Origin: Candidatus Latescibacterota bacterium
GTDB lineage: Bacteria; Latescibacterota; UBA2968; GCA-2709665
Direction of reading: 5' to 3'
DNA: 64,000 nt
NCBI GenBank assembly: GCA_965222075.1
Contig: OZ244937.1
Location: 1,600,001-1,664,000, forward strand
Part shown: positions 41,692 to 64,000 of the stretch, in pieces
Layout of the letters: each line of letters begins with the position of its first letter
How positions within the stretch are numbered: the stretch's first letter is position 1
Position numbers and translations under genes: made by a program
The notes under the pieces: model-generated
Database searches by the model: none
What the model was told of the DNA's origin: nothing
The model's input: only the letters and a program-made list of their open reading frames with translations

Positions 41692-41782
41692 TTAAATACC
41701 TTACATATTTGATTGTACGCTTTGTACCTTTTCCATTAATGAACGCCCGGGTCAATGTAACCGGCAATGGGGGTCAACGATC

Positions 41783-44080: not shown

Positions 44081-44103
44081 AGTCCATAGCGTTTGAAGGT
44101 GGA

Positions 44104-46599: not shown

Positions 46600-46810
46600 C
46601 GGCTCCTCCTTATACTTGAGCCATATACCTCCAAAAAACAATCGGCGCCCTATTGAGAGATCGCTTGCAAATAAAACGGCGGCCAATGCGCCTCGGCCAA
46701 TCCCGGCTAAAGGACACATCGTACCGCCGCCACGTTTATCCCGCTCCGGAATCGGCCCCGAAAACCTCGGCATACCAATCCCTTGCGTCTTCCGACCGGC
46801 CTGGAAAACG

Positions 46811-47821: not shown

Positions 47822-47834
47822 CTATCGCCCCTGT

Positions 47835-50249: not shown

Positions 50250-50315
50250 AAAATATAAAGGCAGGATAAGGACAGAAGCTCCTATATCCGGGACCCTGGG
50301 ACCGACGGCCGTTCG

Positions 50316-53300
50316 CTAGAAATTCGATCTGAGCCCCACCTCTACCTTCCGGGGCGCCCCGTAGAAGCTCCGGTCGCCGAGATCTCCATACCGGACGAAC
50401 TCGGAGTTGTCCGGCCGGGGTCTCTGCAGACCCCAGTTGACCCAGTCGGTCGTATTAAACGAACTGTCGTCCGCCTGGTTAAACATGTTCCGGACCTGCA
50501 TGAAAAGGCTGACATCTTTCCCGCCGCCGAATGGGAATCGTTTCTCCACGGCCAGATCCGTCCAGGTGCGGACGGGACGGGCCCGCCGCACCCGCCCGGC
50601 ATTCGGTGGGGTGTACCAGAAGCCCCCTGTGTTCTGCAGGCGCCAGATGAGGTTGACCCGCCAGTTGGCCAGCACCTTGCTCCCGAGTAGACGGGCATCC
50701 GGCCCGTAGTCCGGCGGTGTGTGGTAGACGAACTGCAAGCTGGCCTGGTTGCGGATGTCTCCGCCGTCGGGATTCAGGCCGGTATAATACCCCCGCACCC
50801 AGACTTTGAGGTGCTCCTCGTTGAACTCGTCAATGTCCGTATAACCCGCATACGAGATGGGCATATCTAAACCGTCGGCCGTGAGCGTCTGTTCGTAGCC
50901 CTTTCCTCCGGGCCTGCCGTGCCGATTCCTGTTGTTTCTGATCACATTGTTGGCAGTGTGCCCGATCGCCCTGATCTGTTCCTCGGTCAGGGGCACCGGC
51001 ACCTCTTGGCCGTTTTGGACCGTGAACTCGTACCAGTAGCGCCCGCTGGCAATATAAGTGGAGTCGGGATACATGAAGTTGAACCAGGCGTCCCAGTTGC
51101 CCCAGGCCTGCTGCGCGTCGGTCAGGTTGTAGCTCAGGTTGAACGCAAAGTTGTTGGTGAACGACTTGCTGAGGGAAAACTCCAGCCCCCGCTGCTCCTC
51201 GAACCCGTTGTTGTGGAGCATCCGGGCGTAAGGCGCCATCCACCCCGGTTTGTGAGGCGCGTAAAAGCGGGCATCGGAGTGGTAGTGGAACTGGTCCTTT
51301 GCGCTTTTATAGTAGAGCGCAACAGCAGCGACATAATTTGACACAAAGTTCCAGTCGGCCCCCACCTCCATCGACACCGTCTGCTCCGGACGCAGGTCGG
51401 AAGTTCCGAACGATTCTCTCCAGTAGGGCCGCATGGCATTGTAGAGCTCGTTCGAATCGATCCTGCCGTTATCGTTCCAGTCGTTGTCTTCGCCCGCAAC
51501 CCGCCAGTCCGAACTGGTGAACCAGTAGACATCCGGATAGGCCAGGAACAGACCGACGAAGTAGTGCATGGAGGCTTTATCCGTGATCGGATGCGACACC
51601 CCGAACCTGGGACTCACATTTGTGAAAACCCTCGGGTCCTTCATCGGCGCATTCTGGTAGCGCAGGGGCGAGAAGTACATCGGAGAAAACGCGTAATTCG
51701 TGAGCGAGGGGAACTTGGACACCGGGTCGAGCCGGTCGATCCGCAGGCCCGCGTTGATGACCATTCCCTCGAACTCCATCTTATCCTGCACGTAGAACGC
51801 CAGGTGCAGCGGCTTTGAGGGATTTCCGATCACGGCCTCCGCGCCCGTGTACTCAAGCCGCCGGGCCGTTGGCGATTCGTAGGAGAACCGGGTTTGCCAC
51901 ACGCTGTACTTGATCGCCTCCATCCCGACCTTCAAGAAGTGTCCTTTCGTCACCTGGCTGGCCAGGTCAAACTTCAACTGATACCGCCTTCGGTCAGAAA
52001 TCCCCCATTGATTGATCTGCCGGTCGGTGACAAACCAGCCCTGTTCATCCGTGCTTGGATCTCCGGTCCTCGGCGATATAGACCCGACCGTATCCTGCCG
52101 GGTCCTGTACCGGGAAATCCTCAGATCGTAGAACGTCTTGGCAGACAGAGAGTGCGTGAACGCCACGTATTCCATGTCGTGGAGCGTTTCCATTTTACCC
52201 GATGCGCTCCACTCCTCCGGCAAAAAGAGGTTCTTCCCGTTGTCGTCTATGCCCCGGATGGTCCCGGTTCTGGATGTCAGCCCCCCGATGTTTCGATACG
52301 AACCGTTGTCCCTTCCCATATACTGGTCATTGTACGAGAACAGCCCCCCGACCTTCACCTTGATTTCTGTCGTTAGACGGAAGGCAAAGCTGGACGATCC
52401 CTGGAAGTTTTTGGTGGACGGGACGAAGCTTCCCCGCTCGGTCAAAAAACCTCTTTCCGTCGCACTGGGGTACACGGGGGCGATCCGGCTCGTGCTGCCG
52501 CTCAAGATGAACGAAACCCGATCCGTCAGAGGCCCGGAAACGGTCCCTTCCATCTCGTGGCCCGATACCTCGTCGTACCGCGAGCGCTTATGCACAACGC
52601 GCCCCGTTGCCGGGTTGCGCTCGTTCTCCCACTGCCCATCCCCCCACTTCATCTTGTCCCGGTGCATCGGGCTATCGTATATATTTGCCCCCCAGTGCTG
52701 CTGGCCGCCGGGGTGATACTTGTACTCCGTCCACGCACGGAAACTCTGACCCCCGTCTTTCGTCACGATGTTGACGACCCCGGCCTGCGCATTGCCGAAT
52801 TCGGCATTCATCCCGCCGGTCACCACCGCGATCTCCTGCACGGCCGACCGATTGATCGACTGCCATTGGTGGGAATCCGCGCCATCGCTGTTCACGATCT
52901 TCACACCGTCAACATAATAGGCCACATCGCCGCCCACTTTGCCCCGCCATTCCCCCGCACTGGTGCTGCCCCTCATCCGGCCGGACCCATCCAGGTGCAC
53001 CCCCGGCTGAAGCGTGATCATTTCGCTCGTGGACCTGACGATCGGGAGGTTTTCGATCTCGTCGGCGCCCACCGTATACTTGGAGAAGGTCTTGTCCACC
53101 TCCACAGGGGGACTTACGGCCTTCACCACCATCTCCTCCAGTTCCAGCGCCGCCTCTGCCAGTGTAAACGTCACCTCCGTGGTATGGTCCACCTCCACCC
53201 GGACGTCCGTCTTCGTCTCTGTCTGATATCCGACCAGAGAGGCCGTCAGGGTGTGAAGGCCGGGATCGACCGCCAGGATGACATAATATCCACTCTCATC

Positions 53301-53477
53301 CGCGGAGGCCCCCACCCTCGTGCCTTCAATCACCACGTTGGCGCCGGGCAACGGCCCTCCGGTGTTATCCAGGACCCGCCCCGTGATCTTCCCGACCGTT
53401 GCGGCCGTGGCATCGCTGACAAATATCATCGCCAGCGACAGAAAAAGAATTCCAGCAACACAGATGGTCTTTTTCAT
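50316..53477 (-). CDS. TonB-dependent receptor with N-terminal carboxypeptidase-regulatory-like domain
   Basis: GKITGRV..PLPGANV, GGMNAEFGNAQAGVVNIVTK, LRPEQT, terminal Phe. Confidence 0.9.
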   Translation of the reverse strand: MKKTICVAGILFLSLAMIFVSDATAATVGKITGRVLDNTGGPLPGANVVIEGTRVGASADESGYYVILAVDPGLHTLTASLVGYQTETKTDVRVEVDHTTEVTFTLAEAALELEEMVVKAVSPPVEVDKTFSKYTVGADEIENLPIVRSTSEMITLQPGVHLDGSGRMRGSTSAGEWRGKVGGDVAYYVDGVKIVNSDGADSHQWQSINRSAVQEIAVVTGGMNAEFGNAQAGVVNIVTKDGGQSFRAWTEYKYHPGGQQHWGANIYDSPMHRDKMKWGDGQWENERNPATGRVVHKRSRYDEVSGHEMEGTVSGPLTDRVSFILSGSTSRIAPVYPSATERGFLTERGSFVPSTKNFQGSSSFAFRLTTEIKVKVGGLFSYNDQYMGRDNGSYRNIGGLTSRTGTIRGIDDNGKNLFLPEEWSASGKMETLHDMEYVAFTHSLSAKTFYDLRISRYRTRQDTVGSISPRTGDPSTDEQGWFVTDRQINQWGISDRRRYQLKFDLASQVTKGHFLKVGMEAIKYSVWQTRFSYESPTARRLEYTGAEAVIGNPSKPLHLAFYVQDKMEFEGMVINAGLRIDRLDPVSKFPSLTNYAFSPMYFSPLRYQNAPMKDPRVFTNVSPRFGVSHPITDKASMHYFVGLFLAYPDVYWFTSSDWRVAGEDNDWNDNGRIDSNELYNAMRPYWRESFGTSDLRPEQTVSMEVGADWNFVSNYVAAVALYYKSAKDQFHYHSDARFYAPHKPGWMAPYARMLHNNGFEEQRGLEFSLSKSFTNNFAFNLSYNLTDAQQAWGNWDAWFNFMYPDSTYIASGRYWYEFTVQNGQEVPVPLTEEQIRAIGHTANNVIRNNRNRHGRPGGKGYEQTLTADGLDMPISYAGYTDIDEFNEEHLKVWVRGYYTGLNPDGGDIRNQASLQFVYHTPPDYGPDARLLGSKVLANWRVNLIWRLQNTGGFWYTPPNAGRVRRARPVRTWTDLAVEKRFPFGGGKDVSLFMQVRNMFNQADDSSFNTTDWVNWGLQRPRPDNSEFVRYGDLGDRSFYGAPRKVEVGLRSNF

Positions 53478-53607
53478 GACTTGCTACCCCCTGTTGTGGA
53501 TATTTATTCTGAATACCTCTGATATTCGGCCCCCGACCCCCTTCACAACACTTTCATTATATAAATACACAAGGCCTCCTTTCTTGAGTTGCCCGGCATA
53601 ATCCAGC

Positions 53608-54327
53608 CTACTTTTTGCCCACATCGTAAAACTTGAATGCGATCTCAAAATCCAGCATCTGTATCGGCCAGACCTCATTGACGCCCCACAATTCATAAGG
53701 CCTGAGATTGCCGGCCAGAAAATTATGCTGAACCCGGAAATCCAGCGCGACGAAATGGGATAAAAAAAACTCCACGCCAAATCCAAAGTTGACCCCCAGC
53801 GCCGCCCGGCGGTCTTGCTGCGGCAGCAAGTGAGAGCTCAGATCGAGCGGCTCCGTTGTCTGGCCCGGGTAAATCAGGCCGCTCACATTATTCTTGTATT
53901 CGTGAAAACCTGCGCCGAGCAATACGTAAGGAGATACCCCCTGGCTGGTGAAAAGATTCTTCTTGTCTCCCAGGCGAAAGACAGTGTTGATCAGCACGCT
54001 GTTGATCCGCATATTCGCAGCGGCCCGAGGACTGGAATACTCCTTATTGTCCACATTCCACATGAACACACGATCCTCAATCTTCCCATTCTTGTATTTG
54101 ATCCGATGAAACTCGAACTCTAGAGCCAGTTTGGCATCCATAGAATAGACCAGGCTGCCACCCCACTTCGCCGCTTGATTGTACCAGCTCTGGTTCAGGC
54201 CGAACACAGGTTTGTTATAACCCAGGAAGAGCCTCCCGCCAATCCGTTTGTAATCCTGCCCGTATGAAGCCGACGCCAGCAACAACACCAGAACACCGGT
54301 AAGCGTTATACATTTCCATTGTCTCAT
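53608..54327 (-). CDS. Outer-membrane beta-barrel (OmpA/porin-like) protein
   Basis: Signal peptide, SPYVLLGAG, GVNFGFGVEF amphipathic strands. Confidence 0.7.
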   Translation of the reverse strand: MRQWKCITLTGVLVLLLASASYGQDYKRIGGRLFLGYNKPVFGLNQSWYNQAAKWGGSLVYSMDAKLALEFEFHRIKYKNGKIEDRVFMWNVDNKEYSSPRAAANMRINSVLINTVFRLGDKKNLFTSQGVSPYVLLGAGFHEYKNNVSGLIYPGQTTEPLDLSSHLLPQQDRRAALGVNFGFGVEFFLSHFVALDFRVQHNFLAGNLRPYELWGVNEVWPIQMLDFEIAFKFYDVGKK

Positions 54328-54796
54328 AACATACCCTCCTTTACTCAGACAACCGTTGTGGGTTGGATCCTGCGGGGCGGAGCGGTCAATCCCCCCAGTA
54401 CCATCGTAGCCTCGCTCACCCAGAAATTTTCCGAACCACGCAGCACCTGTTACTCCTTAACCGATCACGAATGCACAAGAATCACTCATGTACCAAATAA
54501 TAATATATAAATCCCCTTTGTCAAGCAGAAAAACGCGATGGCACGAAAAAAATTAAGTGAGCGTTGTATAAGTTATAAGCCTATTAAAACAAGAGCTTAC
54601 GTCAAAAAATGCCCAAAACTATATGGCCATAATCAATTCAGGTGCCGCGTCCAGCATGATTTCTTCAAATTCATCAAGACTGGCAGCCTCAATATGCAAG
54701 CCCTCAATGTCGCTTTGAGCATAGAAGACCTGCGCCTCATTGTCCCGGATAGCCTTCACGGTAAAAGTGCGCTTCATAATGTGCTCCTCCGCTGTA

Positions 54797-54990
54797 AGAA
54801 GCTGTCTTAAAACCCACGTCGGGCCGCTTTGCAGGGCTGTCGAGTTCCCCTGGCGTCAGGCGATTTTCGAGGGCGAGACCTGCCTGCCGAGTCGGCGCCC
54901 TCGTTCCCGGGTTCTTTGCACGCTGTCTGCAAGCAGGCAGACAGGCAGGTCCGCTTGAGGGACCGAACCCGAAATTTTAAAACGGCTTCT
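54797..54990. mobile_element. MITE-like element with 16-bp imperfect terminal inverted repeats
   Basis: AGAAGCTGTCTTAAAA (54797-54812) versus rc of 54975-54990 AGAAGCCGTTTTAAAA (14/16); no clear target duplication. Confidence 0.55.
54879..54949. repeat. 71-bp composite hairpin insertion element nested in the MITE
   Basis: CCTGCCTGCC...GCAGACAGGCAGG at GA^TC. Confidence 0.7.
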
Positions 54991-55861
54991 GAGAGATCGC
55001 TTGCACACAGCGAAATCCGGTAAAGATGCTCCGGTGGTCACCCGGAAAGAACCTGAAACGGGCCGACGTCTGAAGATAGTGGGGAAGGTGGTGCCACGAA
55101 CTCCCCCTCACCACACGGAATCTACCGGTATCCGGACCGGGAGGGTTGCGCCTGGGGCTTTCCGTGTAGTAAGTCTCGTCGTACCAGTCCCTGCACCATT
55201 CCCACACGTTGCCCGCCATATCCTGGAGACCGTAAGGACTTGCCCCTGCCGGCAGGGAACCCACGGGCATGGTATGGCAATACTCGCCCGCCACCGGGCC
55301 GCTCGGCGGGTTTTCCCAGCTGCTCCTGCCGCAGTGACCGCCCAGGTCCATAACCGCACGCGCGCCCGTAGGTTCCTCTTCCCCCCACGGGTACGTCCGG
55401 CCGGCCGTCCCCCGCGCTGCCTTCTCCCACTGCGCCTCCGTCGGCAGATCCCCACCCCGCCACCTGCAGTAGGCAACGGCATCCTCCCAGGACACCCCCA
55501 CTACGGGCTGCGTCGGTCCCGAAAAAAGCGGGTTGTCCGTTTCGGCCGACTCCCGATGTCCTGCGGCCTGAACAAAGGCCCGATACTGCGCATGGGCCAC
55601 CTCATATTTGTCGATATAATAGGCATCCAGATAAACCATGTGTGCAGGCCCCTCAGGCGCAAATCCCCGGTTTGTCCCCATCAGAAACTCCCCTGCGGGG
55701 ATGGCAATCATCGTGTCTACGGTCCCCGCAGGTGTGCGGGCCAGGAAAATCTCTCCCCCCACCACCGGGTTCAGCACGGAATCCTTTTCCCCACACCCGG
55801 CGCACCAGAGGAGAAGACAGAGCACCAGACGCCATCGCGGTCGTGTTTTCAACCTGTGCAT
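54977..55861 (-). CDS. FGE-sulfatase domain lipoprotein
   Basis: [31 protein letters not shown]; lipobox-like CAGC. Confidence 0.85.
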   Translation of the reverse strand: MHRLKTRPRWRLVLCLLLWCAGCGEKDSVLNPVVGGEIFLARTPAGTVDTMIAIPAGEFLMGTNRGFAPEGPAHMVYLDAYYIDKYEVAHAQYRAFVQAAGHRESAETDNPLFSGPTQPVVGVSWEDAVAYCRWRGGDLPTEAQWEKAARGTAGRTYPWGEEEPTGARAVMDLGGHCGRSSWENPPSGPVAGEYCHTMPVGSLPAGASPYGLQDMAGNVWEWCRDWYDETYYTESPRRNPPGPDTGRFRVVRGSSWHHLPHYLQTSARFRFFPGDHRSIFTGFRCVQAISQKPF

Positions 55862-55878: not shown

Positions 55879-56487
55879 TTACCTGCTCAGAAGAGCCAGA
55901 AAATCCCTCCGGAGCTTCTCCCGGGTCCCCACAACCGTGCGCCCCCAGCTCAGCAGTGGGTCTGGCAACTCTTCCCACAGGGCCTCAGGGCCAAACAGAA
56001 AATAAATATCCCAGACCACCTCCACATCCTCGCCATACCTCCCCTGTGCTGCGAACCACCGCCCCACAACCCGCTGCTCATCCCACAGATGAATCACCCT
56101 CGAGTCCGGAATAAGGCTCTTCTTCCACTCCGACCGGGCATCGCTGGCAATCATCGGAAGCCAGACCGCGTAAACCTTCACATCTGCCGTGCTATTCTTT
56201 TCCAGAAGCTCCTCTTGCACCCAACTGGCGCCTGCCTGGCAGACCCCTCACGTAGGCGAAAGCAGCAGAATCAGGCGGGGTACACCCGCATCCTGGTTGA
56301 ACACCTCCTGGAGCTCCTCAATCCGGCCGATATCCTCCAAATCCTGAAAGGACTCATCGGATACCGGATTGTCACCGCAGGCGGCAAACATACCCACCGT
56401 CAGAAGCAGCATCAACCGCCACTCCAGGCAGACATCTCCAATCATCCACAGACAACGCCGGACGTCTCTTATCATCTCTTCCTCCAT
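55879..56487 (-). CDS. Probable selenoprotein, thioredoxin-like fold with UxxC motif (UGA at 56248-56250)
   Basis: Two track ORFs join in frame across TGA: RLILLLSPT-U-GVCQAGASWVQEELL..VYAVWLPMI..D..WDIYFLFGP. Confidence 0.8.
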
Positions 56488-56792
56488 CGTGAAGGGGGAT
56501 CCTCAGTACGTTACAAAATCAGCATGCGGGCGGGGCGCGGAAGACGGGGCGACGACCTCACTACCAGCCAATGTGAAGGCAGGACCACCGGCGTGTCGGC
56601 CAAAGCCTCCCGAAGGACGGGTGCCAGCGAGCGGGGAAACAGGGAACGGTTAGCGTCCATTTGTCGATTGTATTAGCGGCCAATTGCCGGTTAAGAGAGC
56701 GTCCAATTGTCGAATGGCTGCAACGTGACAATCTATTGGGGAAGGGGACGCGGTGGGGATCACGTGACACGAGCGCAGTGGACTCGCTCCCG

Positions 56793-57866
56793 CTAAAACC
56801 TGAAGGTGAAGATTCTGATCGTGTGTCGACTCGGCCAGGGTCTGCTGAAGTCCAGGGCCTTGTACTGCTCGGGCACGGTGGACCAGCCTTTGTAGATGTT
56901 GCCGCCGAAGTAGAAACGCCGCGTCGTGCCGGGCTCCGTGGTCGCAGTGCCCGTCGCGAAGAGCTCGTAGGAATGCTCCGGCGGGCGTGGGCCGATTTGA
57001 TCGTCGTGAGGCACGTACTCCCTGCGACCGTCGCCGTCGACGTCCGCTCGAATCCAGTCGAGATGGAGCAGGCGATGGTAGCTGCGGTCGGCGATCAGGC
57101 CGCGCAGCTCGGCGTTGAACCGCGAGATGATCGACTCGGCGTCCGGAAGCGACCGGCGGACGGCGAGGTGAAGCGAGCGTGTGAGCAGCGGCGTCGAGCC
57201 GAACGCCAGCCGCGTTCGAGCTTCTTCTGCGTGGTTGCTGATGAGGTACTGGATGACGAGGTCGTCCATCAGCGTGTAGTCCACCTCACCGTTGAGGAGT
57301 CTTGCGACGCTGTTCTCTTCGCTGTTCGAGCCAACGAAGATCGGCCCGTCCGTCGTCTCGACTGCCTCGCCATACGCGTACCCGGCGACCAGGGCGATCC
57401 GCTTGCCGGCGAGGTCGGACAGCGAGGTCGCGGACACGTCGCTGCCCTGCCGCCCGACGAGGATCAACCGGTTCTCGAGATACGGCTGCGAGTAAATCAG
57501 CGCGCGTTCGCGCTCCGTGTCCTTCCAGAGGGCCGCGCTTCCGTCGAACTCGCCGCTCAGCAGTGAGGGCGTCAGCCTGGCCTCATCCACGATGACCGTT
57601 TCGGCGATGATCCCCATGCGTTCGAGAGCCACCTCGACCAGATCGAGGGCGAACCGCGGCTGTCCTGGCGCGTTGGTGAACGGCGACCACGCCGTCGACA
57701 CGAGCTGCATCTGCCGATCCTGCGCTGCCGCCATGATCGGTATGGCGATGATCAGGAGTAGCAGCGCTCCGGTCATCCACCGGATCCAACGAAGAAGCCG
57801 TGTTTGGCGCATGGGTCGTGAATTTTCCAGTTTCCGTGCGTCGTTCGCTGACATATTGTAAGTCAT
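56793..57866 (-). CDS. Family 3 extracellular solute-binding protein
   Basis: WSPF, ERERALIYSQPYLENRL, LSDLAGKRI, RLLNGEVDY. Confidence 0.8.
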   Translation of the reverse strand: MTYNMSANDARKLENSRPMRQTRLLRWIRWMTGALLLLIIAIPIMAAAQDRQMQLVSTAWSPFTNAPGQPRFALDLVEVALERMGIIAETVIVDEARLTPSLLSGEFDGSAALWKDTERERALIYSQPYLENRLILVGRQGSDVSATSLSDLAGKRIALVAGYAYGEAVETTDGPIFVGSNSEENSVARLLNGEVDYTLMDDLVIQYLISNHAEEARTRLAFGSTPLLTRSLHLAVRRSLPDAESIISRFNAELRGLIADRSYHRLLHLDWIRADVDGDGRREYVPHDDQIGPRPPEHSYELFATGTATTEPGTTRRFYFGGNIYKGWSTVPEQYKALDFSRPWPSRHTIRIFTFRF

Positions 57867-57994
57867 TCTTCACCCCTCCTGCTATTTACGCACTCTACTC
57901 CAGGCCGCACTGAAGGATTTTCATGTACGCAGGTCCGACGTCTCCACGCCGGCTGAAATCTCGCCCTCTGACCAATCTACCAGGAGTTGCCGCC

Positions 57995-58180
57995 CCCTGC
58001 CACCCGGCATCAAGCAGTGGTTCAGGACCTGGTTCCTGAACCTGGTTCGTCCTTTCTGCCTGCCAATGCCATCAACGTCCCTATTGCCTTTTCTGTCAGG
58101 CAGTTACGCAGAATTTCGACCTGGTGCCGACCTGGTGCCCAACTTGTGCGGTGTCCTGGTCCCGACCTGTGCGGTCGGCC
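57995..58180 (-). pseudogene. Remnant of a Fic/RecG-associated C-terminal HTH domain
   Basis: Frameshifted HQVEILRNCLTEKAIGTLMALAGRKD..RFRNQVL..LLDAG. Confidence 0.45.
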
Positions 58181-58599
58181 TGGGAAAAGTCGTCGTTACT
58201 CACGACTCCCATAAATATACACCAGGCAAAGTGGAAAAGACAGTCAAAGATGAGGGTGGCCCTGAGCCTGGAGAGGCTGCTTCGAGCCGGTGCCGGAAGG
58301 ATGCTGCAAACCTGCCAGGACTTCGTGGTCTGCCTGCCAGCGGACGAGGCAGGCGGCGGGCATGAAATTCGTGTCTTACTCGACGAGAGCTTTGAACTCC
58401 TCGCTGGCCATGGGTTCGTGCGTGTCCCAACGGCCGCGCATCTCAATTAGAACACGCTGCTTCGACGGCGCGGGCTGCGGGTTGATACGCACCAGGTTCA
58501 CAAGGTCTTTGCACGCATCCAGATTCATCCTCACGTCTGCGGGAGCATCGGGAGCATGAGATAGGAGCGGGGACCAACCGGTTGCCTGTGAAGAACACT

Positions 58600-58864
58600 G
58601 ACAAGCTGTCTCAATATGTACACGGGGCCTTGAGGTGGCGTCATATATCGTGATATCCGGACGGCCGCCTGTCTCGACCTCAGTCTCGCTTTCGATAGAC
58701 TCGGCCTTGAATGGCTCGAATCCGGCACGTTTTGCCACCTTATCGACTAACGCCTGGCACACTCCTGGCGATGCATTAAGGATATATCGCAACGATTCTG
58801 TGGCGATGGTTTCCGGCGATGGCGCAAGCCTTCCTGCCAGGTGCGCCAGGAGACTTTTGTTCAT
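58600..58864 (-). pseudogene. 5' remnant of a PD-(D/E)XK-like nuclease gene
   Basis: SLLAHLA..ATESLRYIL..GRPDI...VHIE, cut off and joined to the same linker that follows the gene ending at 63595. Confidence 0.6.
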
Positions 58865-58880: not shown

Positions 58881-58967
58881 CGTTGGACGACGGCCGCCTG
58901 GGGGATAGAACCACGATGGCAGTCGCCATTTGGAGCGACGCTCCGATCCCGGCGCCGTCAACGTGAA
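58881..58967 (-). pseudogene. Diverged fragment of an Nmad3 paralog
   Basis: 87-bp ungapped similarity to 60810-60896 (FTLTAPGS..KWRLPSWFYPP). Confidence 0.8.
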
Positions 58968-58979
58968 CGCTCACGACGG

Positions 58980-59016
58980 GTTTCAATCCTTGTTCTGGTG
59001 GAAGTATTGCTCTGAT
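58980..59016 (-). CRISPR. Solitary CRISPR-type repeat, family A (37 bp, ...GGATTGAAAC end)
   Basis: GTTTCAATCCTTGTTCTGGTGGAAGTATTGCTCTGAT; first 25 nt identical to 61663. Confidence 0.75.
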
Positions 59017-60080
59017 AAAGAATCGGCCGCCCCCGCGAAACGTCCTACTGAACCGCGTCCGCCATTCGTCGCCAATCCTCCGCTGAACCGCGTCCGCCAT
59101 TCGCGCCAATCCTCCGCAACGCGATCTACTCCTCCTCGGTTGCGGTTCGCGCGCCCAAGTGCACCCGGGCTTGATTGGGCCCAGAATTGCGCGTCCCCGA
59201 TCCGGAACGGCGACGCAATGGCCATTTCGAGGTTGCCTGCCGGCGCCAATCCAAACGACTTGCGGATTGCTCGATATACGGCCAAGCCGAGGCACACCAC
59301 GAGCCTCGGCTCCACAATCTCAATTTCCGGCACGGTGTAGGTCTCTGCTGCCTTCTCCAAATCTTCAACCGGCACGGATTTACTCATTGCTCCATACTTT
59401 ATGAATGGAAACAGGTTTGTCGTGTAGGTTTGCTCCAATCCGATTCCAAAGTGAGTGGAAAGCAGGCTCTTGAGATTCCTGTTGGTCGGCAACTTCGGAT
59501 CGTGCCCCAGCGTAACCAAATTAGAATCTACAGGTTTCTGCAAGAACTCATCCGAACACCAATCCTGGAGCACAAGCATGATATCGGCATTGAGGTTCCA
59601 GGCGGACTTCGTGTAGGGCGATACGAAATCGCACTCATAGGCGCCGGAATGATATTCGCCGATTCCCCTGTATCCGGGAAAAACGTTGTCCCGGCGGTGG
59701 CGGGCAAGCGCCGCGAGGCGTTCCCGCTTTCCGATGCGATTCGCCCGAGAGGGGCTTTGGGTCTTTTGGGGGCGGGCAAGCGCCGCGAGGCGTTCCCGCT
59801 TTCCGATGCTTTCATGCATGCCTGGGCTCCTCTGGAGATCCCTGAGCCTGAGGCCGTCTTTGGGCTTCAGTTCACTGCGGCAATGCGGACACACGGTCGC
59901 CTTTTTGCTGATTCGCTTGCGGCATTGCGGGCACGTCACGCCCGCGAAACACGCGAGGATGATGCCGATGGGGCCCAAGAGCAGGCCTCCAAAGAACCAG
60001 CCCAATCCCGATCCGCCGCGGCTGCTGCCAATGAGCACGGCGATCAGTCCGAAGGCCATCCAGAGCACGAACAGTTCCAT
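58983..60080 (-). CDS. Uracil-DNA glycosylase superfamily protein fused to an N-terminal membrane/zinc-ribbon module; 3' end rearranged
   Basis: CPQC..CPHC; IMLVLQDW, YTTNLFPF, EIEIVEPRLVVCLG. Confidence 0.7.
   Translation of the reverse strand: MELFVLWMAFGLIAVLIGSSRGGSGLGWFFGGLLLGPIGIILACFAGVTCPQCRKRISKKATVCPHCRSELKPKDGLRLRDLQRSPGMHESIGKRERLAALARPQKTQSPSRANRIGKRERLAALARHRRDNVFPGYRGIGEYHSGAYECDFVSPYTKSAWNLNADIMLVLQDWCSDEFLQKPVDSNLVTLGHDPKLPTNRNLKSLLSTHFGIGLEQTYTTNLFPFIKYGAMSKSVPVEDLEKAAETYTVPEIEIVEPRLVVCLGLAVYRAIRKSFGLAPAGNLEMAIASPFRIGDAQFWAQSSPGALGRANRNRGGVDRVAEDWREWRTRFSGGLATNGGRGSVGRFAGAADSLSEQYFHQNKD
59048..59116. repeat. 35/34-bp tandem duplication
   Basis: CTGAACCGCGTCCGCCATTCG(T)CGCCAATCCTCCG twice; single copy in the paralog near 62513. 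Confidence 0.85.
59699..59809. repeat. 39-bp perfect direct repeat flanking a 33-bp unique insert
   Basis: GGCGGGCAAGCG...TTCCGATGC at 59699-59737 and 59771-59809; the paralog near 63116-63154 has one copy and no insert. Confidence 0.9.
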
Positions 60081-60505
60081 GCCGTTTCCTCCTGTGTGAT
60101 GGCGCGTCACAACCTTCCAGCCCGCACGTATCGCCAAATCGAGCCTGACGACTCAACGGCATCCCGGACGAGCAACAATTCACGCGTCGCGGCTGCCTGG
60201 CAGTGGTTTCACGTCGATGTTGGGAGACGACATGTCCAGATCGGTAACGTTGATCGTCGTCGACGCGCTGACCTTTACGGCCTGTAAGATAACACAAGCG
60301 CGTATATTCTCCGGGTTGACCTCGTCGATAAACCCTGCATATCGCCGCGCTCGCGCCGTCGATCAATGAGTTTGTGAGCAATGTTTCGATGGTGACGCAT
60401 CCGCTCATCGTGTTCGAAAAAGCGATGCGTGCCTGCGTCGTCGAGGTTGCCGCGCACATAGAAGGGTTCGCCGTCGTCGGCACCGCCTTAGAAACATGCC
60501 GAGAC

Positions 60506-60574
60506 GTTCAATCCGCTCCCCCCTGCCTGCCGTGCACAGCACGGCGCAGGCAGGCCACCGAAGTGAGGGGAGAT
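60506..60574 (-). CRISPR. Solitary CRISPR-type repeat, family B (strong hairpin), interrupted by a hairpin element
   Basis: Removing 60522-60554 gives GTTCAATCCGCTCCCCCCACCGAAGTGAGGGGAGAT. Confidence 0.65.
60522..60554. repeat. 33-bp hairpin insertion element
   Basis: CCTGCCTGCCGTGCACAGCACGGCGCAGGCAGG; flanks C^C, the exception to A^TC. Confidence 0.8.
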
Positions 60575-60665
60575 GCCCGGGTTGCCAGCGAAACGGCGTA
60601 ATTGACGGGTTTCGCAGATGTCGTCAGGCGCCCGGGGCTGAGGAGCTTGTTCATCTCACATCCCA

Positions 60666-61520
60666 TCACATGAACAGCTCGCGCAACCAGACGTTGGCTT
60701 CCGGGATACCGTCGGCGTCGAACACGAACTCCTGCCCACGGCCCACCGTGTCGACGTAAACCCACGGTTTGCGGCGTCGCCAACGTCTCCTATTGCTATG
60801 GTAGCTGAGCGTTGGACGACGACTGCCTGGGGGATAGAACCACGACGGCAACCGCCATTTACGACGACTCGTCGAGCCCGGCGCGGTCAACGTGAAACGG
60901 TCGCCGTTACCGCTGAACAGGCCGGCGCCGCTTCGCGCGGTCAGCCCCTCGAAATTGAGCGTCTCTCTCGCGATGTAGACGGTGTTGTAGCGCCACCGCC
61001 TATTCAGGTGGGGATGCGCAGACAGCCACGGACGTGCGGAGCGCGCACGAGACAGATTCTCCCCGACGGGCACGACCTCGGAAACCTGGAGCCAACCGAA
61101 CAACCTGTGCACGTCAGGAGCGTTCCGGACGTACCGCCATGTGCCCCCGTTCCCGGGTTCCACGGCACGAAACCAGCCGAAGAACAGAAAGAGGTCGCCA
61201 GGCCCAACACCCTGATTTTCCAGATGGCGTTGAGCGATCTCGACCTGCCCGAAGGCCGGCCGCCAGCCGGGCGAACGCGCAAGGGCATCGGCGTTCAGAT
61301 CCGGATCCAGATGGCACCGGTGCTTTCCCTTCACTCGACCGTTGGTCAAACACTCCACGATCGGGCCGAGAGACGTGCCACGCCACCGTACGTCCCTGAA
61401 TCGCGTCGGACTTCTGGGGTACGGAATCGGCAGAGACAGGGCAGTACCGTCCGGAAAAATGGGACTCGCCCTCCCCCCGTTGCTGGAATCGAATCCCTTG
61501 CGGCTGAAAACGATCTTCAT
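60666..61520 (-). CDS. Nucleotide modification associated domain 3 (Nmad3) protein
   Basis: MKIVFSRKGFDSSNGG..SPIFPDG..LSLPIP, HLDPDL, FGQ, GDLFLFFGWF, HPH, GRGQEFV. Confidence 0.85.
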   Translation of the reverse strand: MKIVFSRKGFDSSNGGRASPIFPDGTALSLPIPYPRSPTRFRDVRWRGTSLGPIVECLTNGRVKGKHRCHLDPDLNADALARSPGWRPAFGQVEIAQRHLENQGVGPGDLFLFFGWFRAVEPGNGGTWRYVRNAPDVHRLFGWLQVSEVVPVGENLSRARSARPWLSAHPHLNRRWRYNTVYIARETLNFEGLTARSGAGLFSGNGDRFTLTAPGSTSRRKWRLPSWFYPPGSRRPTLSYHSNRRRWRRRKPWVYVDTVGRGQEFVFDADGIPEANVWLRELFM

Positions 61521-61537
61521 TGCTTCTCTTCCTCCTC

Positions 61538-61620
61538 TTATGGTCCCGTGCGGTTACCCAAACTTACAGCAATCAGCAGAAAGTCAGCAAAGTCAACAAT
61601 ACCATTCTTGTCCAATCAAA
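61538..61620 (-). pseudogene. 3' remnant of a dockerin/EF-hand-like gene directly after the type I-E-like repeat
   Basis: LDKNGIVDFADFLLIAVSLGNRTGP*. Confidence 0.55.
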
Positions 61621-61621
61621 C

Positions 61622-61650
61622 CGGTTCATCCCCACGCCTGTGGGGAGTAT
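61622..61650 (-). CRISPR. Solitary type I-E-like CRISPR repeat (29 bp)
   Basis: rc ATACTCCCCACAGGCGTGGGGATGAACCG: TCCCCAC/GTGGGGA stem and ATGAACCG handle. Confidence 0.8.
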
Positions 61651-61662
61651 CTGCCGGCCGTT

Positions 61663-61700
61663 GTTTCAATCCTTGTTCTGGTGGAAGAATTCGTACAGAT
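61663..61700 (-). CRISPR. Solitary CRISPR-type repeat, family A
   Basis: GTTTCAATCCTTGTTCTGGTGGAAGAATTCGTACAGAT. Confidence 0.75.
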
Positions 61701-61833
61701 TAAAAACCGCGCCATCTGGCAGGGGCGTATCGGGTCGACTTCGTCCAGCTCAATGTCGGTGGGAAGGAAACTCCAGAATGCACCAACGCACGGGATCTCG
61801 GGGTAGCCAGCGGGCAATTCCTCGGGCTTTCTA

Positions 61834-62379
61834 TTAGGCCGAGCGACGGAGCGCGTCCGCCAACGCCGCAAATCGGCCGGCAACCGATGAACTCGGATGC
61901 GGGCATGGCAGGAAATCAATGTCGGCACGCCGCAAGGCCGTCTGCGCCTCGCGACCCAACGCGATGACCCTCCGCCCCTCAACCTCATACCGGGTCACCG
62001 CCTCGATTGAAAGCTTCATCAATTCGCGAGGCACCTTCCGCCGCCGGTTTTCCCTCGGCAAGAAATGGCACGCCTGTGTGATGTAGATGTTCCCACGCGT
62101 GCGCTCGACATCCTCCAGGATCCGGTCAAGAGTGCTGTTGAATGGGATGTCTGGCAAGTACCCCAAACACTCAAGGATTGCACGTTCCTGATTCACGGAT
62201 TCCGCATCCAACCAATGCTTCGCCACGAGTACCGGGCCGGTCATGCTGTTCGATATTTTCTGAATGGGCGATACCCAATCGCCATCAAACCCAACGTCGG
62301 CCAATGTCACCCACTGCTCCTGGAACTGATCCGGAACCTGAAGCTCGCGACGACGTGCGATGATGTCCTCTCTCGTCAC
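61834..62379 (-). CDS. Divergent uracil-DNA glycosylase superfamily protein
   Basis: WVSPIQK, PVLVAKHW, IYITQACHFLP, RVIALGREA, CPHPS; similar layout to the neighbouring UDG-like gene. Confidence 0.65.
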   Translation of the reverse strand: MTREDIIARRRELQVPDQFQEQWVTLADVGFDGDWVSPIQKISNSMTGPVLVAKHWLDAESVNQERAILECLGYLPDIPFNSTLDRILEDVERTRGNIYITQACHFLPRENRRRKVPRELMKLSIEAVTRYEVEGRRVIALGREAQTALRRADIDFLPCPHPSSSVAGRFAALADALRRSA

Positions 62380-62461
62380 GGTTTCTCCTCCTCAATCGGC
62401 GCCAGCCGAGTCCAGCTTCCGCGATGGCGGATTCGACCGGCGGCGGACTTATGGGCAGGGC

Positions 62462-63164
62462 TTACGCATCTCGTGAGGCGTCGTGTTTCGGCCGCCCCCG
62501 CGAAACGTCCCACTGAACCGCGGCCACCATTCGTCGCCAATCCTCCGAAACACGATCTACTCCTCGATTACGGCTCCCACGCCAACCCGGGTGTGATTGG
62601 GCCCAGACTTTCGCGTCCCTGATCGGGAACGGCGACGCAATGGCCACTCTCGAGGTTGCCTACCGGCGCCAATCCAAACGACTTGCGGATTGCCTGATAC
62701 ACGGCCAATCCAAAACACACGACGAGTTTCGGCCCAACAAGCTCTATTTCCGGCACGGTGTAGGTCTCTGCTGCCTTCTCCAAATCTTCATCCGGCATTG
62801 CTCCATGCTTTATGAACGGAAACAGGTTTGTCGCGTAGGTTTGCTCCAATCCGATTCCAAAGTGAGTGGAAAGCAGGCTCTTGAGATTCCTGTTGGTCGG
62901 CAACTTCGGATCGTGCCCCAGCGTAACCAAATCAGAATCTACACGTTTCTGTTTCCGCAAGAATTTATCCGAACACCAATCCTGGAGTACAAGCATGATA
63001 TCGGCATTGAGGTTCCCGGCGGACTTCGTGTAGGGCGATACGAAATCGCACTCATAGGCGCCGGAATGATATTCGCCGATTCCCCTGTATCCGGGAAAAA
63101 CGTTGTCCCGGCGGTGGCGGGCGAGCGCTGCGAGGCGTTCCTGCTTTCCGATGCTTTCATGCAT
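62462..63164 (-). pseudogene. UDG-superfamily gene (close paralog of 58983-59820), frameshifted near 62645
   Basis: IMLVLQDW, YATNLFPF; the AIASPF..WAQSHPG segment continues in ORF 62462-62647. Confidence 0.75.
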
Positions 63165-63256
63165 GCCTGCACTCCTCTCGAGATTCCTGAACTTGAGCCG
63201 GTTTGCCCTCTGCGAGCCTTACGCGAGTTCCCGATCATTCAGGCGATCTCCGCGTG

Positions 63257-63293
63257 GTTTCAATTCTTGTTCTGACGGAAGAGATTTCCAGCG
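63257..63293 (-). CRISPR. Solitary CRISPR-type repeat, family A (degenerate)
   Basis: GTTTCAATTCTTGTTCTGACGGAAG: 22/25 identical to the other two copies. Confidence 0.65.
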
Positions 63294-63594: not shown

Positions 63595-64000
63595 CTAAGC
63601 CGAATCGGACGGCGAATTCTCCTGCGTCGCCTGTTCGAATTTATCGATGGTTTCGCGCATCTGAGTAACCGCATCTTCGATTACTCGATCCTTGTCGACG
63701 CCACTTGCCAGCCGAATCGGAAAGCACAGACAATCTCTGTACTCTTGATGGTCCGGGCATATCCGTTTCACACTTGACCAGTGTCTGATGAGCCCACCCC
63801 ATTCCGTTTTGTATACCTCACACCATATGGGAGTTATACCGGAATCGCGCCATGCTATGATATCAACGCCCAACCACAAACCAAACTGTAGATCTTTTCC
63901 TGCTGAAAAGTAGCGACCCTTCTTGAAATAGGAACGTGTAGGATTCACGCCCTCAAAGCTTGCAAGACCCTCGTTCTTAAGAACTTCGGCAATTTCCTCG
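63595..64000 (-). CDS. C-terminal part of a hypothetical protein, likely the same PD-(D/E)XK-like family as 58600-58864
   Basis: GRYF....LWLGVD..AW...GITPIW; the frame is open to the window edge; shares the downstream linker with the 58.6 kb remnant. Confidence 0.55.
   Translation of the reverse strand, partial: EEIAEVLKNEGLASFEGVNPTRSYFKKGRYFSAGKDLQFGLWLGVDIIAWRDSGITPIWCEVYKTEWGGLIRHWSSVKRICPDHQEYRDCLCFPIRLASGVDKDRVIEDAVTQMRETIDKFEQATQENSPSDSA

What the first reader, a model, noticed from the sequence alone, without database searches (positions are those of the whole stretch)
58980..63293. Genes punctuated by solitary CRISPR repeats of three families: a repeat-delimited gene cassette array
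Seen: five isolated repeats at 58980, 60506, 61622, 61663 and 63257. Three share GTTTCAATYCTTGTTCTGRYGGAAG, one is a strong-hairpin ...GGATTGAAC type and one is type I-E-like. All read in crRNA sense (ending ATTGAAAC, ATTGAAC or ATGAACCG) on the same strand as the genes. They are separated by 1.0-1.6 kb gene-bearing segments instead of 30-40 nt spacers, and several sit right at junctions with gene fragments (UDG/Nmad3 fragment, dockerin fragment). In family A, conservation is confined to the 3' stem-and-handle part. No cas gene is in the window. Known: Cas6/Cas5d cut the repeat stem leaving the 3' handle, and solitary repeats act as RNA anti-CRISPRs or crRNA-like regulators (Racr, CreTA). Inference, three options: (a) an integron-like array in which repeats are capture or recombination sites for gene-sized defence cassettes; (b) Cas6-type processing sites that place defence mRNA under CRISPR control; (c) crRNA-like regulators. 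This is the best candidate for an undescribed system.
Basis: partly seen in the sequence, partly recalled or inferred. Interest (0 to 1): 0.9.

Follow-up and report, generated by a model that had tools for sequence, protein, structure and literature searches.

The report
Genes separated by single CRISPR repeats
At the far end of a normal CRISPR array, a block of defence-type genes is divided up by single CRISPR repeats, and related genomes suggest these repeats are array leftovers at which gene modules get swapped.

Summary
All five repeats are at the stated coordinates. All three families are genuine CRISPR repeats that form normal arrays in related genomes.

That array has 86 regular repeats plus a terminal one, with a full cas operon behind it. 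The solitary repeats lie on its trailer side. They share one strand with ten defence-type genes: three UDG-like, Nmad3, an EEP nuclease, PIN and AlbA2.

Outside the array, family-A repeats occur in this genome only at this locus, always in the same orientation.

Relatives, labelled Latescibacterota in their record titles, show the same layout:
- There are 78 solitary or terminal repeats in 18 loci of 15 genomes, one strand per locus.
- Homology breaks fall at repeats.
- Cassette DNA is 86-96% identical across genera, against 68-75% for the housekeeping flank.
- In a sister genus, a conserved small ORF starts 2-5 nt after the repeat.

My best reading is that these are array remnants serving as homology anchors for cassette exchange. 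RNA processing by Cas6b is untested, and no integrase was found. I class it as a new variant of a known kind.

The parts
57996..58556 (-). Remnant of an AlbA2/HATPase_c_4-type gene with an internal deletion. This is the left edge of the mosaic block.
   Evidence: Its pieces match window-equivalent 66744-68953 and a paralogous locus about 248 kb upstream.
58376..58864 (-). Truncated copy (162 aa ORF) of the 'p133' gene part. No family hit.
   Evidence: 84.6% identical over 104 aa to the ORF at window-equivalent 64277-64678. No Pfam hit.
58881..58967 (-). 87-nt fragment of the Nmad3 3' end (residues 209-237), abutting repeat R1.
   Evidence: 84% identical to 60810-60896. The same repeat-plus-fragment junction stands upstream of Nmad3 in G002 and G012.
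58980..59016 (-). R1, a family-A (type I-B) repeat of the local array's own variant. It is the outermost repeat of the locus.
   Evidence: Core 25 of 25. BLAST gives 97% identity over 35-38 nt to the array repeats. PWM score 37.2 bits. Rfam CRISPR-DR7 scores 30.6 bits, below the gathering score of 37.
58983..60137 (-). 384-aa ORF. It joins a UDG-superfamily-like domain (a paralogue of the gene at 62568-63164) to an N-terminal zinc-ribbon extension. It carries internal tandem duplications and reads through into R1.
   Evidence: Weak zinc-ribbon Pfam hits below cut-off. 88% identical to p198 over 172 aa. Duplications at 59048/59083 and 59696/59768.
60506..60575 (-). Family-B (I-C-like) CRISPR repeat, split by a REP-like palindrome inserted at about 60524-60556.
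   Evidence: The intact repeat forms arrays in G002, G016, G018, G020 and G057. The hairpin alone has roughly 80 dispersed copies. A second copy lies at window-equivalent 64837.
60666..61520 (-). Nmad3 gene (284 aa).
   Evidence: Pfam PF18754, E 4.8e-79. 75-80% identical orthologues sit beside A repeats in relatives. A promoter-like TTGAC box upstream is conserved in G000, G002 and G012 (read from the sequences).
61622..61649 (-). Family-E (type I-E) CRISPR repeat, 13 nt downstream of R2 in crRNA sense.
   Evidence: Forms arrays of 61-nt period in G024, G026 and G043. The 68-nt unit 61621-61688 recurs at 68967-69034 with 97% identity.
61663..61699 (-). R2, a family-A repeat. The core is intact and the 5' third is degenerate.
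   Evidence: Core 25 of 25. PWM score 39.9 bits.
61834..62379 (-). UDG-like gene (181 aa).
   Evidence: Pfam PF03167, E 1e-6. 71-72% identical copies in G009.
62568..63164 (-). 'p198', a member of a widespread family of about 220 aa related to the UDG superfamily.
   Evidence: 203 database relatives. Some carry PF03167, and JGI names some 'uracil-DNA glycosylase' or 'restriction system protein'. No Pfam hit for the protein itself.
63257..63293 (-). R3, a family-A repeat of the relatives' variant, partly degenerate.
   Evidence: Core 22 of 25. PWM score 26.4 bits. Spanned by a contig of an independent run (X4 record 21).
63595..64000 (-). 3' part of a gene ('p245') that runs off the window. Together with 'p133' it corresponds to a single 360-aa ORF in G020, so it looks frameshifted here.
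   Evidence: L016 8971-10050 matches both parts at 77% and 92%. No Pfam hit.

Best explanation
The five repeats are genuine CRISPR repeats left on the trailer (old) side of a type I-B CRISPR-Cas locus. That locus lies just beyond the window.

The roughly 11 kb between the array's terminal repeat (window-equivalent 70139) and the outermost repeat (58980) is a mosaic of same-strand defence-type genes. Single repeats of three CRISPR types separate them. Those types have stood at this hotspot as arrays, or still do in relatives.

Arrays collapse by repeat-repeat recombination to a single repeat. The surviving repeats have a 25-nt core that is conserved across genera. They then act as short portable homology patches. 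At these patches, gene modules are duplicated, deleted and exchanged, including between co-occurring related lineages. The outcome looks like a cassette array, but it is made by ordinary homologous recombination and not by a dedicated integrase.

What is shown:
- the identity of the repeats and their restriction to this locus;
- their uniform orientation;
- homology breaks at repeats;
- the higher cross-genus identity of cassette DNA;
- decay of the repeat at some orthologous sites.

What is inferred:
- the recombination pathway;
- array collapse as the source of the solitary repeats;
- that Cas6b cuts any transcript crossing the four repeats with an intact or nearly intact 25-nt core.

In the sister genus, some repeats have been taken over as the element between cistrons. 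There the repeat supplies a stop codon and a Shine-Dalgarno-like AAGGA for a small ORF.
For: 1. A real array and cas operon are adjacent. There are 86 repeats at a period of about 75 nt (70286-76659), plus a terminal repeat at 70139. An AT-rich leader follows, then cas4, cas2, cas1, cas6b, cas3, cas5, cas7, cas8b and a WYL regulator, all on the minus strand.

2. A PWM scan of the whole 5.36-Mb genome found 92 hits of at least 14 bits in minus-strand sense and 0 in plus-strand sense. Outside the regular array these are only 58980, 61663, 63257, 69009, 70139 and 85386.

3. Families B and E form normal arrays in relatives. A decayed second E repeat lies beside the one at 68968.

4. The junction repeat-27 nt-EEP start is orthologous across genomes. 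It is intact in G000 and G003, has 5 mismatches in G020, is heavily decayed in G009 and G017, and is gone in G012. R1 plus the Nmad3 fragment matches the junction at the terminal array repeat of G012 and at a solitary repeat of G002.

5. Short units (68 nt A+E, about 84 nt B+REP) recur between unrelated genes.

6. Homology breaks coincide with repeats. L011 5779 = L019 6789, L011 6775 = L019 7111 and L011 9015 = L018f 7322. The EEP block 69016-70160 is bounded by A repeats in both G000 and G003, with different neighbours.

7. Cassette DNA is 86-96% identical to G003 (another genus), but in a different order and split over two loci. The housekeeping flank 40000-55750 is 68-75% identical to G003, G016 and G020.

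8. The block holds gene wrecks: fragments of AlbA2, p133 and Nmad3, and a frameshifted p133/p245.

9. No transposase or integrase was found among the ORFs scanned in the block. Array interruptions in G012, by contrast, are IS elements.
Against: Homologous recombination on 25-37 nt is inefficient, and I have no direct evidence for the pathway.

Pure relics should decay. Yet R1, R2 and the copy at 69009 keep 25 of 25 core positions.

In the sister genus, repeats upstream of the small ORF are 76-92% identical where third codon positions are only 41-57% identical. This argues for selection, or for gene conversion, on at least some solitary repeats.

The strict co-orientation of repeats and genes (78 repeats, one strand per locus) is not required by a recombination-only model. 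It would fit an RNA-level function.

The identity baseline rests on one flank of about 16 kb and one protein.

A 7.3-kb stretch flanked by two 97%-identical A+E units (61621-61688 and 68967-69034) would also fit site-specific or Campbell-type insertion.
Confidence: 0.55

Rival explanations
1. RNA punctuation. The trailer genes are transcribed together with, or like, the pre-crRNA. Cas6b (Cas5d in type I-C relatives) cuts at each solitary repeat. This would release or control individual mRNAs and tie expression of the defence genes to the state of the CRISPR system.
For: Repeats and genes share one strand throughout.

Cas6b is encoded 8 kb away, and four of the solitary or terminal repeats keep an intact or nearly intact core.

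EEP starts 27 nt after the terminal array repeat.

In G010 a type I-C array runs straight into repeat-separated small ORFs with no room for promoters.

Only one terminator-like site was found on the minus strand in 12.7 kb.
Against: No RNA 5'-end data could be obtained.

Five genomes with such repeats gave no hit to PF01881 or PF17262, nor to the G000 Cas6b.

Solitary repeats in genomes with a Cas6b hit (G021, G015) carry 3-5 mismatches, no fewer than elsewhere.

Nmad3 has its own conserved promoter-like box.

A terminator-like hairpin lies in the last 110-nt spacer, before the terminal repeat (read, not flagged by the scan).

The repeat decays upstream of EEP in three genomes.
Confidence: 0.2
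2. Dedicated cassette capture. The CRISPR repeat serves as an attachment site at which an enzyme inserts gene-sized DNA, making a true integron-like system. Cas1-Cas2(-Cas4) is the candidate, being the only integrase-type protein recurrent at these loci.
For: Cassettes are flanked by full-length repeats on both sides, as spacers are. Examples are the 183-nt small-ORF units and the 1093-nt EEP unit.

Cas1 recurs beside the loci in five genomes.

The 7.3-kb stretch is flanked by duplicated 68-nt A+E units.

Cassettes are shared across genera.
Against: Known Cas1-Cas2 complexes measure out spacer-sized DNA (recalled, not tested).

The cassettes sit at the trailer, whereas integration is at the leader.

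The loci contain gene fragments and scrambled pieces, which fits untidy recombination better than precise insertion.

No tyrosine recombinase was found among the ORFs scanned.
Confidence: 0.08
3. The repeats are crRNA-like regulators or decoys. Each solitary repeat would make a cr-like RNA that guides Cascade to a partly matching promoter (as CreA or mini-arrays do), or would soak up Cas proteins (as Racr does).
For: Standalone repeats and mini-arrays near cas genes are common and often regulatory (passages read in 10.1101/2023.03.03.530964).

This locus does hold one such mini-array directly upstream of cas8b.
Against: None of the five has a second repeat at spacer distance.

The 40 nt after each repeat match nothing in the locus beyond 11-12 nt, apart from their own duplicates.

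The locus is chromosomal, and its WYL flank is syntenic across genera.

The repeat core was found in 0 viral contigs.
Confidence: 0.07

Closest known systems
Trailer-end and remnant repeats of a type I-B CRISPR array
   Same: The sequence is the same as the adjacent array's repeat, on the same strand and on the old end of the array. Some copies are degenerate, as terminal repeats usually are.
   Different: The repeats are 1.1-5.7 kb apart instead of about 38 nt. Whole genes lie between them. Repeats of two other CRISPR types are mixed in.
Standalone repeat units and mini-arrays giving cr-like regulatory RNAs (Shmakov et al. preprint 10.1101/2023.03.03.530964, passages read; CreTA recalled)
   Same: These are repeat-like sequences outside the array but inside a CRISPR-cas neighbourhood, with cargo or defence genes between them and the array. 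The preprint ascribes their origin to the recombinogenic nature of repeats.
   Different: Those elements are pairs of repeats around a spacer-sized sequence that partly matches a promoter. Here single repeats stand before whole genes and no such match was found. Only the element upstream of cas8b fits that description.
RNA anti-CRISPRs (Racr; PMC10651486, search listing and start of abstract seen)
   Same: Both are solitary units that mimic the host CRISPR repeat.
   Different: Racrs are encoded by viruses and plasmids. These repeats sit in a chromosomal locus whose flank is syntenic across genera. No viral contig holds the core.
Integron gene-cassette arrays (attC sites and IntI; recalled knowledge)
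   Same: Both have co-oriented genes of unrelated function, each bounded by a short conserved repeat. Content differs between relatives exactly at the repeats, and cassettes are shared across lineages.
   Different: No IntI-type recombinase was found. The repeat is a CRISPR repeat and not an imperfect palindrome. Some genes have their own promoter-like box. There are many gene fragments.
CRISPR arrays interrupted by insertion sequences
   Same: Both have kilobase-sized stretches between repeats of one array. G012 is an example, with 1.6-kb and 5.5-kb inserts.
   Different: The G012 inserts encode transposases (rve, DDE_3, DDE_Tnp_1, IstB). The block in this window encodes none among the ORFs scanned.

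Membership tests
CRISPR array (type I-B) | Repeats identical or nearly identical to one another and to the locus's repeat. | tested here: met
   The core is 25 of 25 at 58980 and 61663 and 22 of 25 at 63257. R1 is 97% identical over 35-38 nt to the array repeats.
CRISPR array (type I-B) | Regular spacing with spacers of about 30-45 nt. | tested here: not met
   Family-A repeats are 2683, 1594, 5752 and 1130 nt apart. The true array has a period of about 75 nt.
CRISPR array (type I-B) | Adjacent cas genes of the matching subtype. | tested here: met
   Cas8b (TM1802), Cas7, Cas5, Cas3, Cas6b, Cas1, Cas2 and Cas4 lie beyond the window.
Regulatory mini-array / cr-like RNA (CreA, scaRNA type) | Two repeat-like sequences around a spacer-sized segment. 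| tested here: not met
   The PWM scan found no second repeat near the five sites. The feature is met only by the separate element upstream of cas8b.
Regulatory mini-array / cr-like RNA (CreA, scaRNA type) | A pseudo-spacer partly complementary to a promoter in the locus. | tested here: not met
   Only matches of 11-12 nt were found within 55-90 kb, apart from self-duplicates. The PAM was not examined.
Racr (RNA anti-CRISPR) | Encoded by a virus, plasmid or prophage. | tested here: not met
   0 viral contigs hold the core. The WYL flank is orthologous in G016. No phage-type genes appeared among the ORFs scanned.
Integron | An IntI tyrosine recombinase beside the array. | tested here: not met
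   No recombinase family appeared among the ORFs scanned in G000, nor among the recurrent families of relatives' loci. Not every ORF was scanned.
Integron | attC sites: imperfect inverted repeats with conserved core and inverse-core sites. | tested here: not met
   Read directly from the sequence, the A repeat has no marked internal inverted repeat and does not fit the attC core consensus. The consensus is recalled from memory.
Integron | Co-oriented cassettes whose content varies between relatives at the repeat boundaries. | tested here: met
IS-interrupted array | A transposase gene within the inserted stretch. | tested here: not met
   None was found in the block. Transposases are present in G012.

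The most novel reading that the evidence does not exclude
In this bacterial family, CRISPR arrays continue at their trailer end into arrays of protein-coding cassettes, with the CRISPR repeat as the attachment and recombination site.

Gene-sized DNA, mostly defence genes, would be captured between repeats and exchanged between co-resident lineages. The capture would be by Cas1-Cas2 or by repeat-anchored recombination. The cassettes would be expressed from the array's transcript. The repeat would supply the stop codon, the ribosome-binding site and a Cas6/Cas5d cutting site.

This would amount to a CRISPR-derived counterpart of the integron.
Probability: 0.15. Interest if true: 0.9.

Novelty: new variant of a known kind. 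Interest (0 to 1): 0.62.

Why it matters
Standalone CRISPR repeats are known as regulators and as phage decoys. Here they mark the borders of whole genes, across at least 15 related genomes.

The genes between them move between genera much more freely than the surrounding chromosome does. If the repeats are the homology anchors for that traffic, then CRISPR loci do more than store spacers. They would also seed a hotspot where defence genes are collected and shuffled.

The small ORF that starts 2-5 nt after the repeat in the sister genus shows that a CRISPR repeat can be taken over as a translation start region. That offers a simple, testable case of a CRISPR part being reused for another job.

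Tried and rejected
Rfam. There was no match at gathering score in L001, although it holds the whole array. In the window, only R1 scored, as CRISPR-DR7 at 30.6 bits against a gathering score of 37. There was also a chance-level Chlorobi-1 hit.

PADLOC. No hit for Nmad3, the UDG-like gene, EEP, PIN, p198, the 384-aa ORF or two small ORFs. Only the AlbA2 protein hit pAgo-associated models, and the 341-aa protein hit weakly.

Pfam. No hit for three small ORFs.

Small ORF structure. The model had pLDDT 80.4. It had no PDB fold match at E <= 0.001.

Small ORF in the protein database. Only 2 relatives were found, one labelled Gemmatimonadota by its source. Record titles of relatives' contigs say Latescibacterota.

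Viral contigs. None holds the repeat core.

Pseudo-spacer complementarity. Nothing beyond 12 nt.

Promoter and terminator scans. No more hits than in shuffles: 4 promoter-like against a mean of 4.4, and 4 terminator-like against 11.6. Two of the promoter-like hits use the repeat's TTGAAA as a -35 box. I give this no weight.

Fold of the array end. z-score 0.22.

Read laying. All four runs are Logan contigs, so they give no RNA 5' ends or strand. The RNA-library run X15 has contigs on the 384-aa ORF, Nmad3 and the UDG-like gene, but DNA carry-over cannot be excluded. Joints 15044->4979 and 6574->10835, with 34-36 letters between, are ordinary arrays of A and B repeats in other community members and not cassette deletions. 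Parts without cover prove nothing. Runs labelled 'sponge metagenome' hold only small shares. Only X15 was laid, so I make no habitat claim beyond that label.

Nmad3 as a CRISPR-linked gene. Rejected. Of the best 80 of 542 loci, 3 have array-like repeats and 3 have EEP nearby, mostly the Latescibacterota relatives.

The 183-aa protein recurrent before repeats. It is not Cas4 and has no Pfam hit.

G001 (same genus, 320 contigs). It has no A repeat and only two short matches to the block, so it gave no useful comparison.

Literature. Searches found no description of gene-sized units between CRISPR repeats, and nothing on Nmad3. This covers only the held library, and supplements were closed.

Full report
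**What is in the window**

The 25-nt core GTTTCAATCCTTGTTCTGGTGGAAG stands at 58980 and 61663 (0 mismatches) and at 63257 (3 mismatches). None was found in 100 shuffles.

The I-E-like 28-mer at 61622 has one other copy in the genome. So does the prefix of the hairpin-type repeat at 60506. Those copies are at window-equivalents 68968 and 64837.

The strong hairpin at 60506 is a separate element. It is a palindrome with roughly 80 dispersed copies on both strands that has landed inside the loop of a CRISPR repeat. The uninterrupted form of that repeat is seen in relatives.

All five repeats read in crRNA sense on the minus strand, the strand of the genes.

The window is bases 1,600,001-1,664,000 of a single 5.36-Mb contig.

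At window-equivalent 70286-76659 lie 86 identical repeats with a period of about 75 nt. A terminal repeat stands at 70139 behind a 110-nt last spacer, and one more solitary copy stands at 69009.

Past an AT-rich leader come cas4, cas2, cas1, cas6b, cas3, cas5, cas7, cas8b (TM1802) and a WYL regulator. All are on the minus strand. This is a type I-B locus.

The solitary repeats are therefore on the trailer side of a real array.

A position-weight scan of the whole genome gave 92 hits in minus-strand sense and none in plus-strand sense at 14 bits or more. Outside the regular array the hits are only 58980, 61663, 63257, 69009, 70139 and 85386. The repeats are thus not scattered, and not in random orientation.

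**The three families are all genuine CRISPR repeats**

- Family A forms arrays in G002, G012, G015, G021 and several genomes of a second family. In all, 22 of 61 relatives have a match.
- Family B forms arrays in G002, G016, G018, G020 and G057. In all, 8 of 61 relatives have a match. It looks like a type I-C repeat; that is my judgement from its hairpin and its ...GGATTGAAAC end.
- Family E forms arrays of 61-nt period in G024, G026 and G043. In all, 6 of 61 relatives have a match.

The apparent restriction of conservation to the 3' part of family A has a simple cause. The 5' third comes in two variants. One belongs to the local array, and R1 has it. The other belongs to the relatives, and the copies at 63257 and 69009 have it.

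**The genes**

Between 58980 and 70139 all annotated genes are on the minus strand:
- a 384-aa ORF and a 198-aa ORF, which are paralogues from a widespread UDG-superfamily-like family;
- Nmad3;
- a UDG-like gene;
- a gene split into 'p133' and 'p245', which is one ORF in G020;
- a 341-aa ORF and a PIN gene;
- an AlbA2/HATPase_c_4/Fic-like_C protein;
- an Exo_endo_phos (EEP) nuclease.

There are also wrecks: remnants of AlbA2, p133 and Nmad3. No transposase or integrase appeared among the ORFs scanned.

To the left of about 55.9 kb lie ordinary envelope and transport genes.

**The block is a mosaic**

Short units recur between unrelated genes. One is 68 nt (A repeat, 13 nt, E repeat), found at 61621-61688 and at 68967-69034 with 97% identity. 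The other is about 84 nt (B repeat with its inserted palindrome), found at 60507-60590 and at 64838-64909 with 79% identity.

R1 lies exactly between two unrelated homology blocks.

R1 and the terminal repeat at 70139 are of the local array's variant. The A repeats between them are of the other variant. The 11-kb block therefore sits like one giant last 'spacer'. This last point is my reading.

**Relatives show the same layout**

In 18 loci of 15 genomes I counted 78 solitary or array-terminal A repeats, always on one strand within a locus. Record titles call four of these relatives Candidatus Latescibacterota.

The same genes recur beside them: Nmad3 in 8 genomes, EEP in 6, and UDG-like genes in 4.

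Orthologous loci of G016, G010 and G006 share flanks at 82-90% identity. They differ in the cassettes between, and homology breaks within 1-7 nt of a repeat.

G003, of another genus, holds many of the window's cassettes at 86-96% nucleotide identity, but in another order and split over two loci. The EEP block (69016-70160) lies between A repeats in both genomes, with different neighbours on both sides.

The housekeeping flank 40000-55750 is only 68-75% identical to G003, G016 and G020. A TonB-type receptor there is 65-67% identical at the protein level.

The cassettes have therefore been exchanged across lineages more recently than the chromosomes diverged. The baseline is one flank only.

**Relic or function? 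Evidence points both ways**

For relics. The junction 'repeat, 27 nt, EEP start' is orthologous in G000, G003 and G020. The repeat there is intact in G000 and G003, worn in G020, barely recognisable in G009 and G017, and gone in G012. The ribosome-binding region stays conserved throughout.

Also for relics. Nmad3 is a widespread gene, found at 542 loci. It has no general link to CRISPR: 3 of the best 80 loci have array-like repeats.

For function. In the sister genus a family of 58-67-aa ORFs occurs in 13 of 15 genomes there, but not in G000. These ORFs start 2-5 nt after the repeat and stop 2 nt before the next one. Of 26 copies found by protein motif alone, 16 have an A core with at most 5 mismatches in that position. 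Several others follow a B-type repeat, a type I-C repeat or a mutated repeat.

The ORF is under purifying selection, with dN/dS of 0.06-0.25 in divergent pairs. Its upstream repeat is 76-92% identical where third codon positions are 41-57% identical.

The repeat's ...AAGGATTGAAAC would supply a Shine-Dalgarno-like AAGGA 11 nt before the ATG, and a TGA stop for read-through from upstream. This is read from the sequences.

In G010 a normal type I-C array of 27 repeats behind cas1-cas2 runs directly into such units.

Five genomes with these units gave no hit to two Cas6 Pfam models or to the G000 Cas6b. The conserved role there is therefore unlikely to depend on a Cas6b-type enzyme. Cas5d was not searched for.

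**Mechanism**

I favour the following account.
- Arrays at this hotspot collapse to single repeats.
- The repeats' conserved core gives short homology patches.
- Recombination at those patches duplicates, deletes and swaps gene modules, including DNA from related co-resident lineages.

The 25-37-nt length is near the minimum that RecA-type recombination needs. I recall this figure and did not test it.

RNA processing by Cas6b at the intact repeats is likely whenever they are transcribed. Whether it matters is open. The only RNA data available were assembled contigs. These place the 384-aa ORF, Nmad3 and the UDG-like gene in an RNA library but show no RNA ends.

A dedicated capture enzyme is not excluded. 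Cas1 is the only integrase-type protein recurrent at these loci.

**Comparison with known systems**

Standalone repeats and mini-arrays in CRISPR-cas loci are described as common. The preprint says they arise from the recombinogenic nature of repeats and are often regulatory (10.1101/2023.03.03.530964, passages read). Racrs are solitary repeats of viruses (PMC10651486, listing and start of abstract).

The present case shares the solitary repeat but differs in three ways:
- whole genes lie between repeats;
- gene content turns over at the repeats;
- in relatives, translation starts directly after the repeat.

My four searches found no description of this. Supplements were closed and subscription journals are not held, so the claim is limited.

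**Verdict**

Option (b) is open. Option (c) is not supported.

I class this as a new variant of a known kind, of moderate to high interest. The interest rests mainly on the family-wide pattern and less on this window alone.

Noticed in passing
L002 1330-1422 (window-equivalent about 85330-85422), minus strand: A mini-array lies directly upstream of cas8b. It has a repeat-like sequence (5 mismatches in the core), a 41-nt AT-rich pseudo-spacer and a second, degenerate repeat, ending about 35 nt before the cas8b start. It resembles the autoregulatory mini-arrays described for type I systems.
   Followed up: partly
window 60524-60556; window-equivalent about 64855-64890; genome 2,492,850-2,492,960: A REP-like palindrome (CTGCCTGC...GCAGGCAGG) has roughly 80 copies on both strands. 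It has inserted into CRISPR repeats: into both family-B solitary copies, and into the outermost repeats of the genome's second array (repeat GCTTCAATGAGGCCGCGATCTAATGACCGCGGAAAT).
   Followed up: partly
L011 5552-7015, L018 7678-7851 and 11004-11177, L019 6562-7611, L020 3341-3514 and others: A family of 58-67-aa proteins (motif W-H-x-D-G-T-P ... D-Y ... A-G-x-P-V-P-T ... Q-L ... W-A) is found only in two sister genera. It has no Pfam, PADLOC or PDB fold match. It is nearly always placed 2-5 nt after a CRISPR repeat, often as the first gene after an array's terminal repeat.
   Followed up: yes
L001 6176-6285 (window-equivalent 70176-70285): The last spacer of the array is 110 nt long. It holds an internal duplication and a hairpin (GGACCAGG...CCTGGTCC) followed by a run of T. 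This could be the array's terminator, placed before the terminal repeat and the EEP gene. The terminator scan did not flag it because its loop is too long.
   Followed up: partly
L001 14776-15576 (cas6b) compared with relatives: The Cas6b of this genome is 84-87% identical to copies in two genomes of another family (G029, G023), where stop codons interrupt it. It is only 27-33% identical to the Cas6b of the sister genus. The cas operon may therefore have been replaced by transfer while the repeat core stayed the same.
   Followed up: no
L163 7268-7310 and L064 about 15637-15680: In front of a divergent Nmad3 clade (G003, G018), the A repeat's 5' two-thirds are kept. Its 3' handle, however, is replaced by ...AAAGAGGACTTTACCG-ATG. 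So a repeat has turned into a ribosome-binding region.
   Followed up: partly
window 55880-57890: This stretch matches non-syntenic places in G003 (next to its cassette locus) and G020 at 86-88% identity. The syntenic housekeeping DNA to its left matches at 68-75%. The exchanged region therefore seems to begin about 3 kb left of the first repeat.
   Followed up: partly
genome 490,434-492,254; 2,299,709-2,300,553; 2,471,194-2,471,695; 2,753,157-2,753,370: Stretches with CRISPR-like periodicity turned out, on reading, to look like tandem repeats of about 72 nt inside coding sequence. They look like leucine-rich-repeat genes by eye; I did not test this. They are false positives of a simple array finder.
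   Followed up: no
L017 4618-6254 and 6514-11972 (G012): A relative's A-type array is broken twice by insertion sequences (rve, DDE_3, DDE_Tnp_1 and IS21-type IstB). This is the ordinary way for kilobases to end up between CRISPR repeats.
   Followed up: yes
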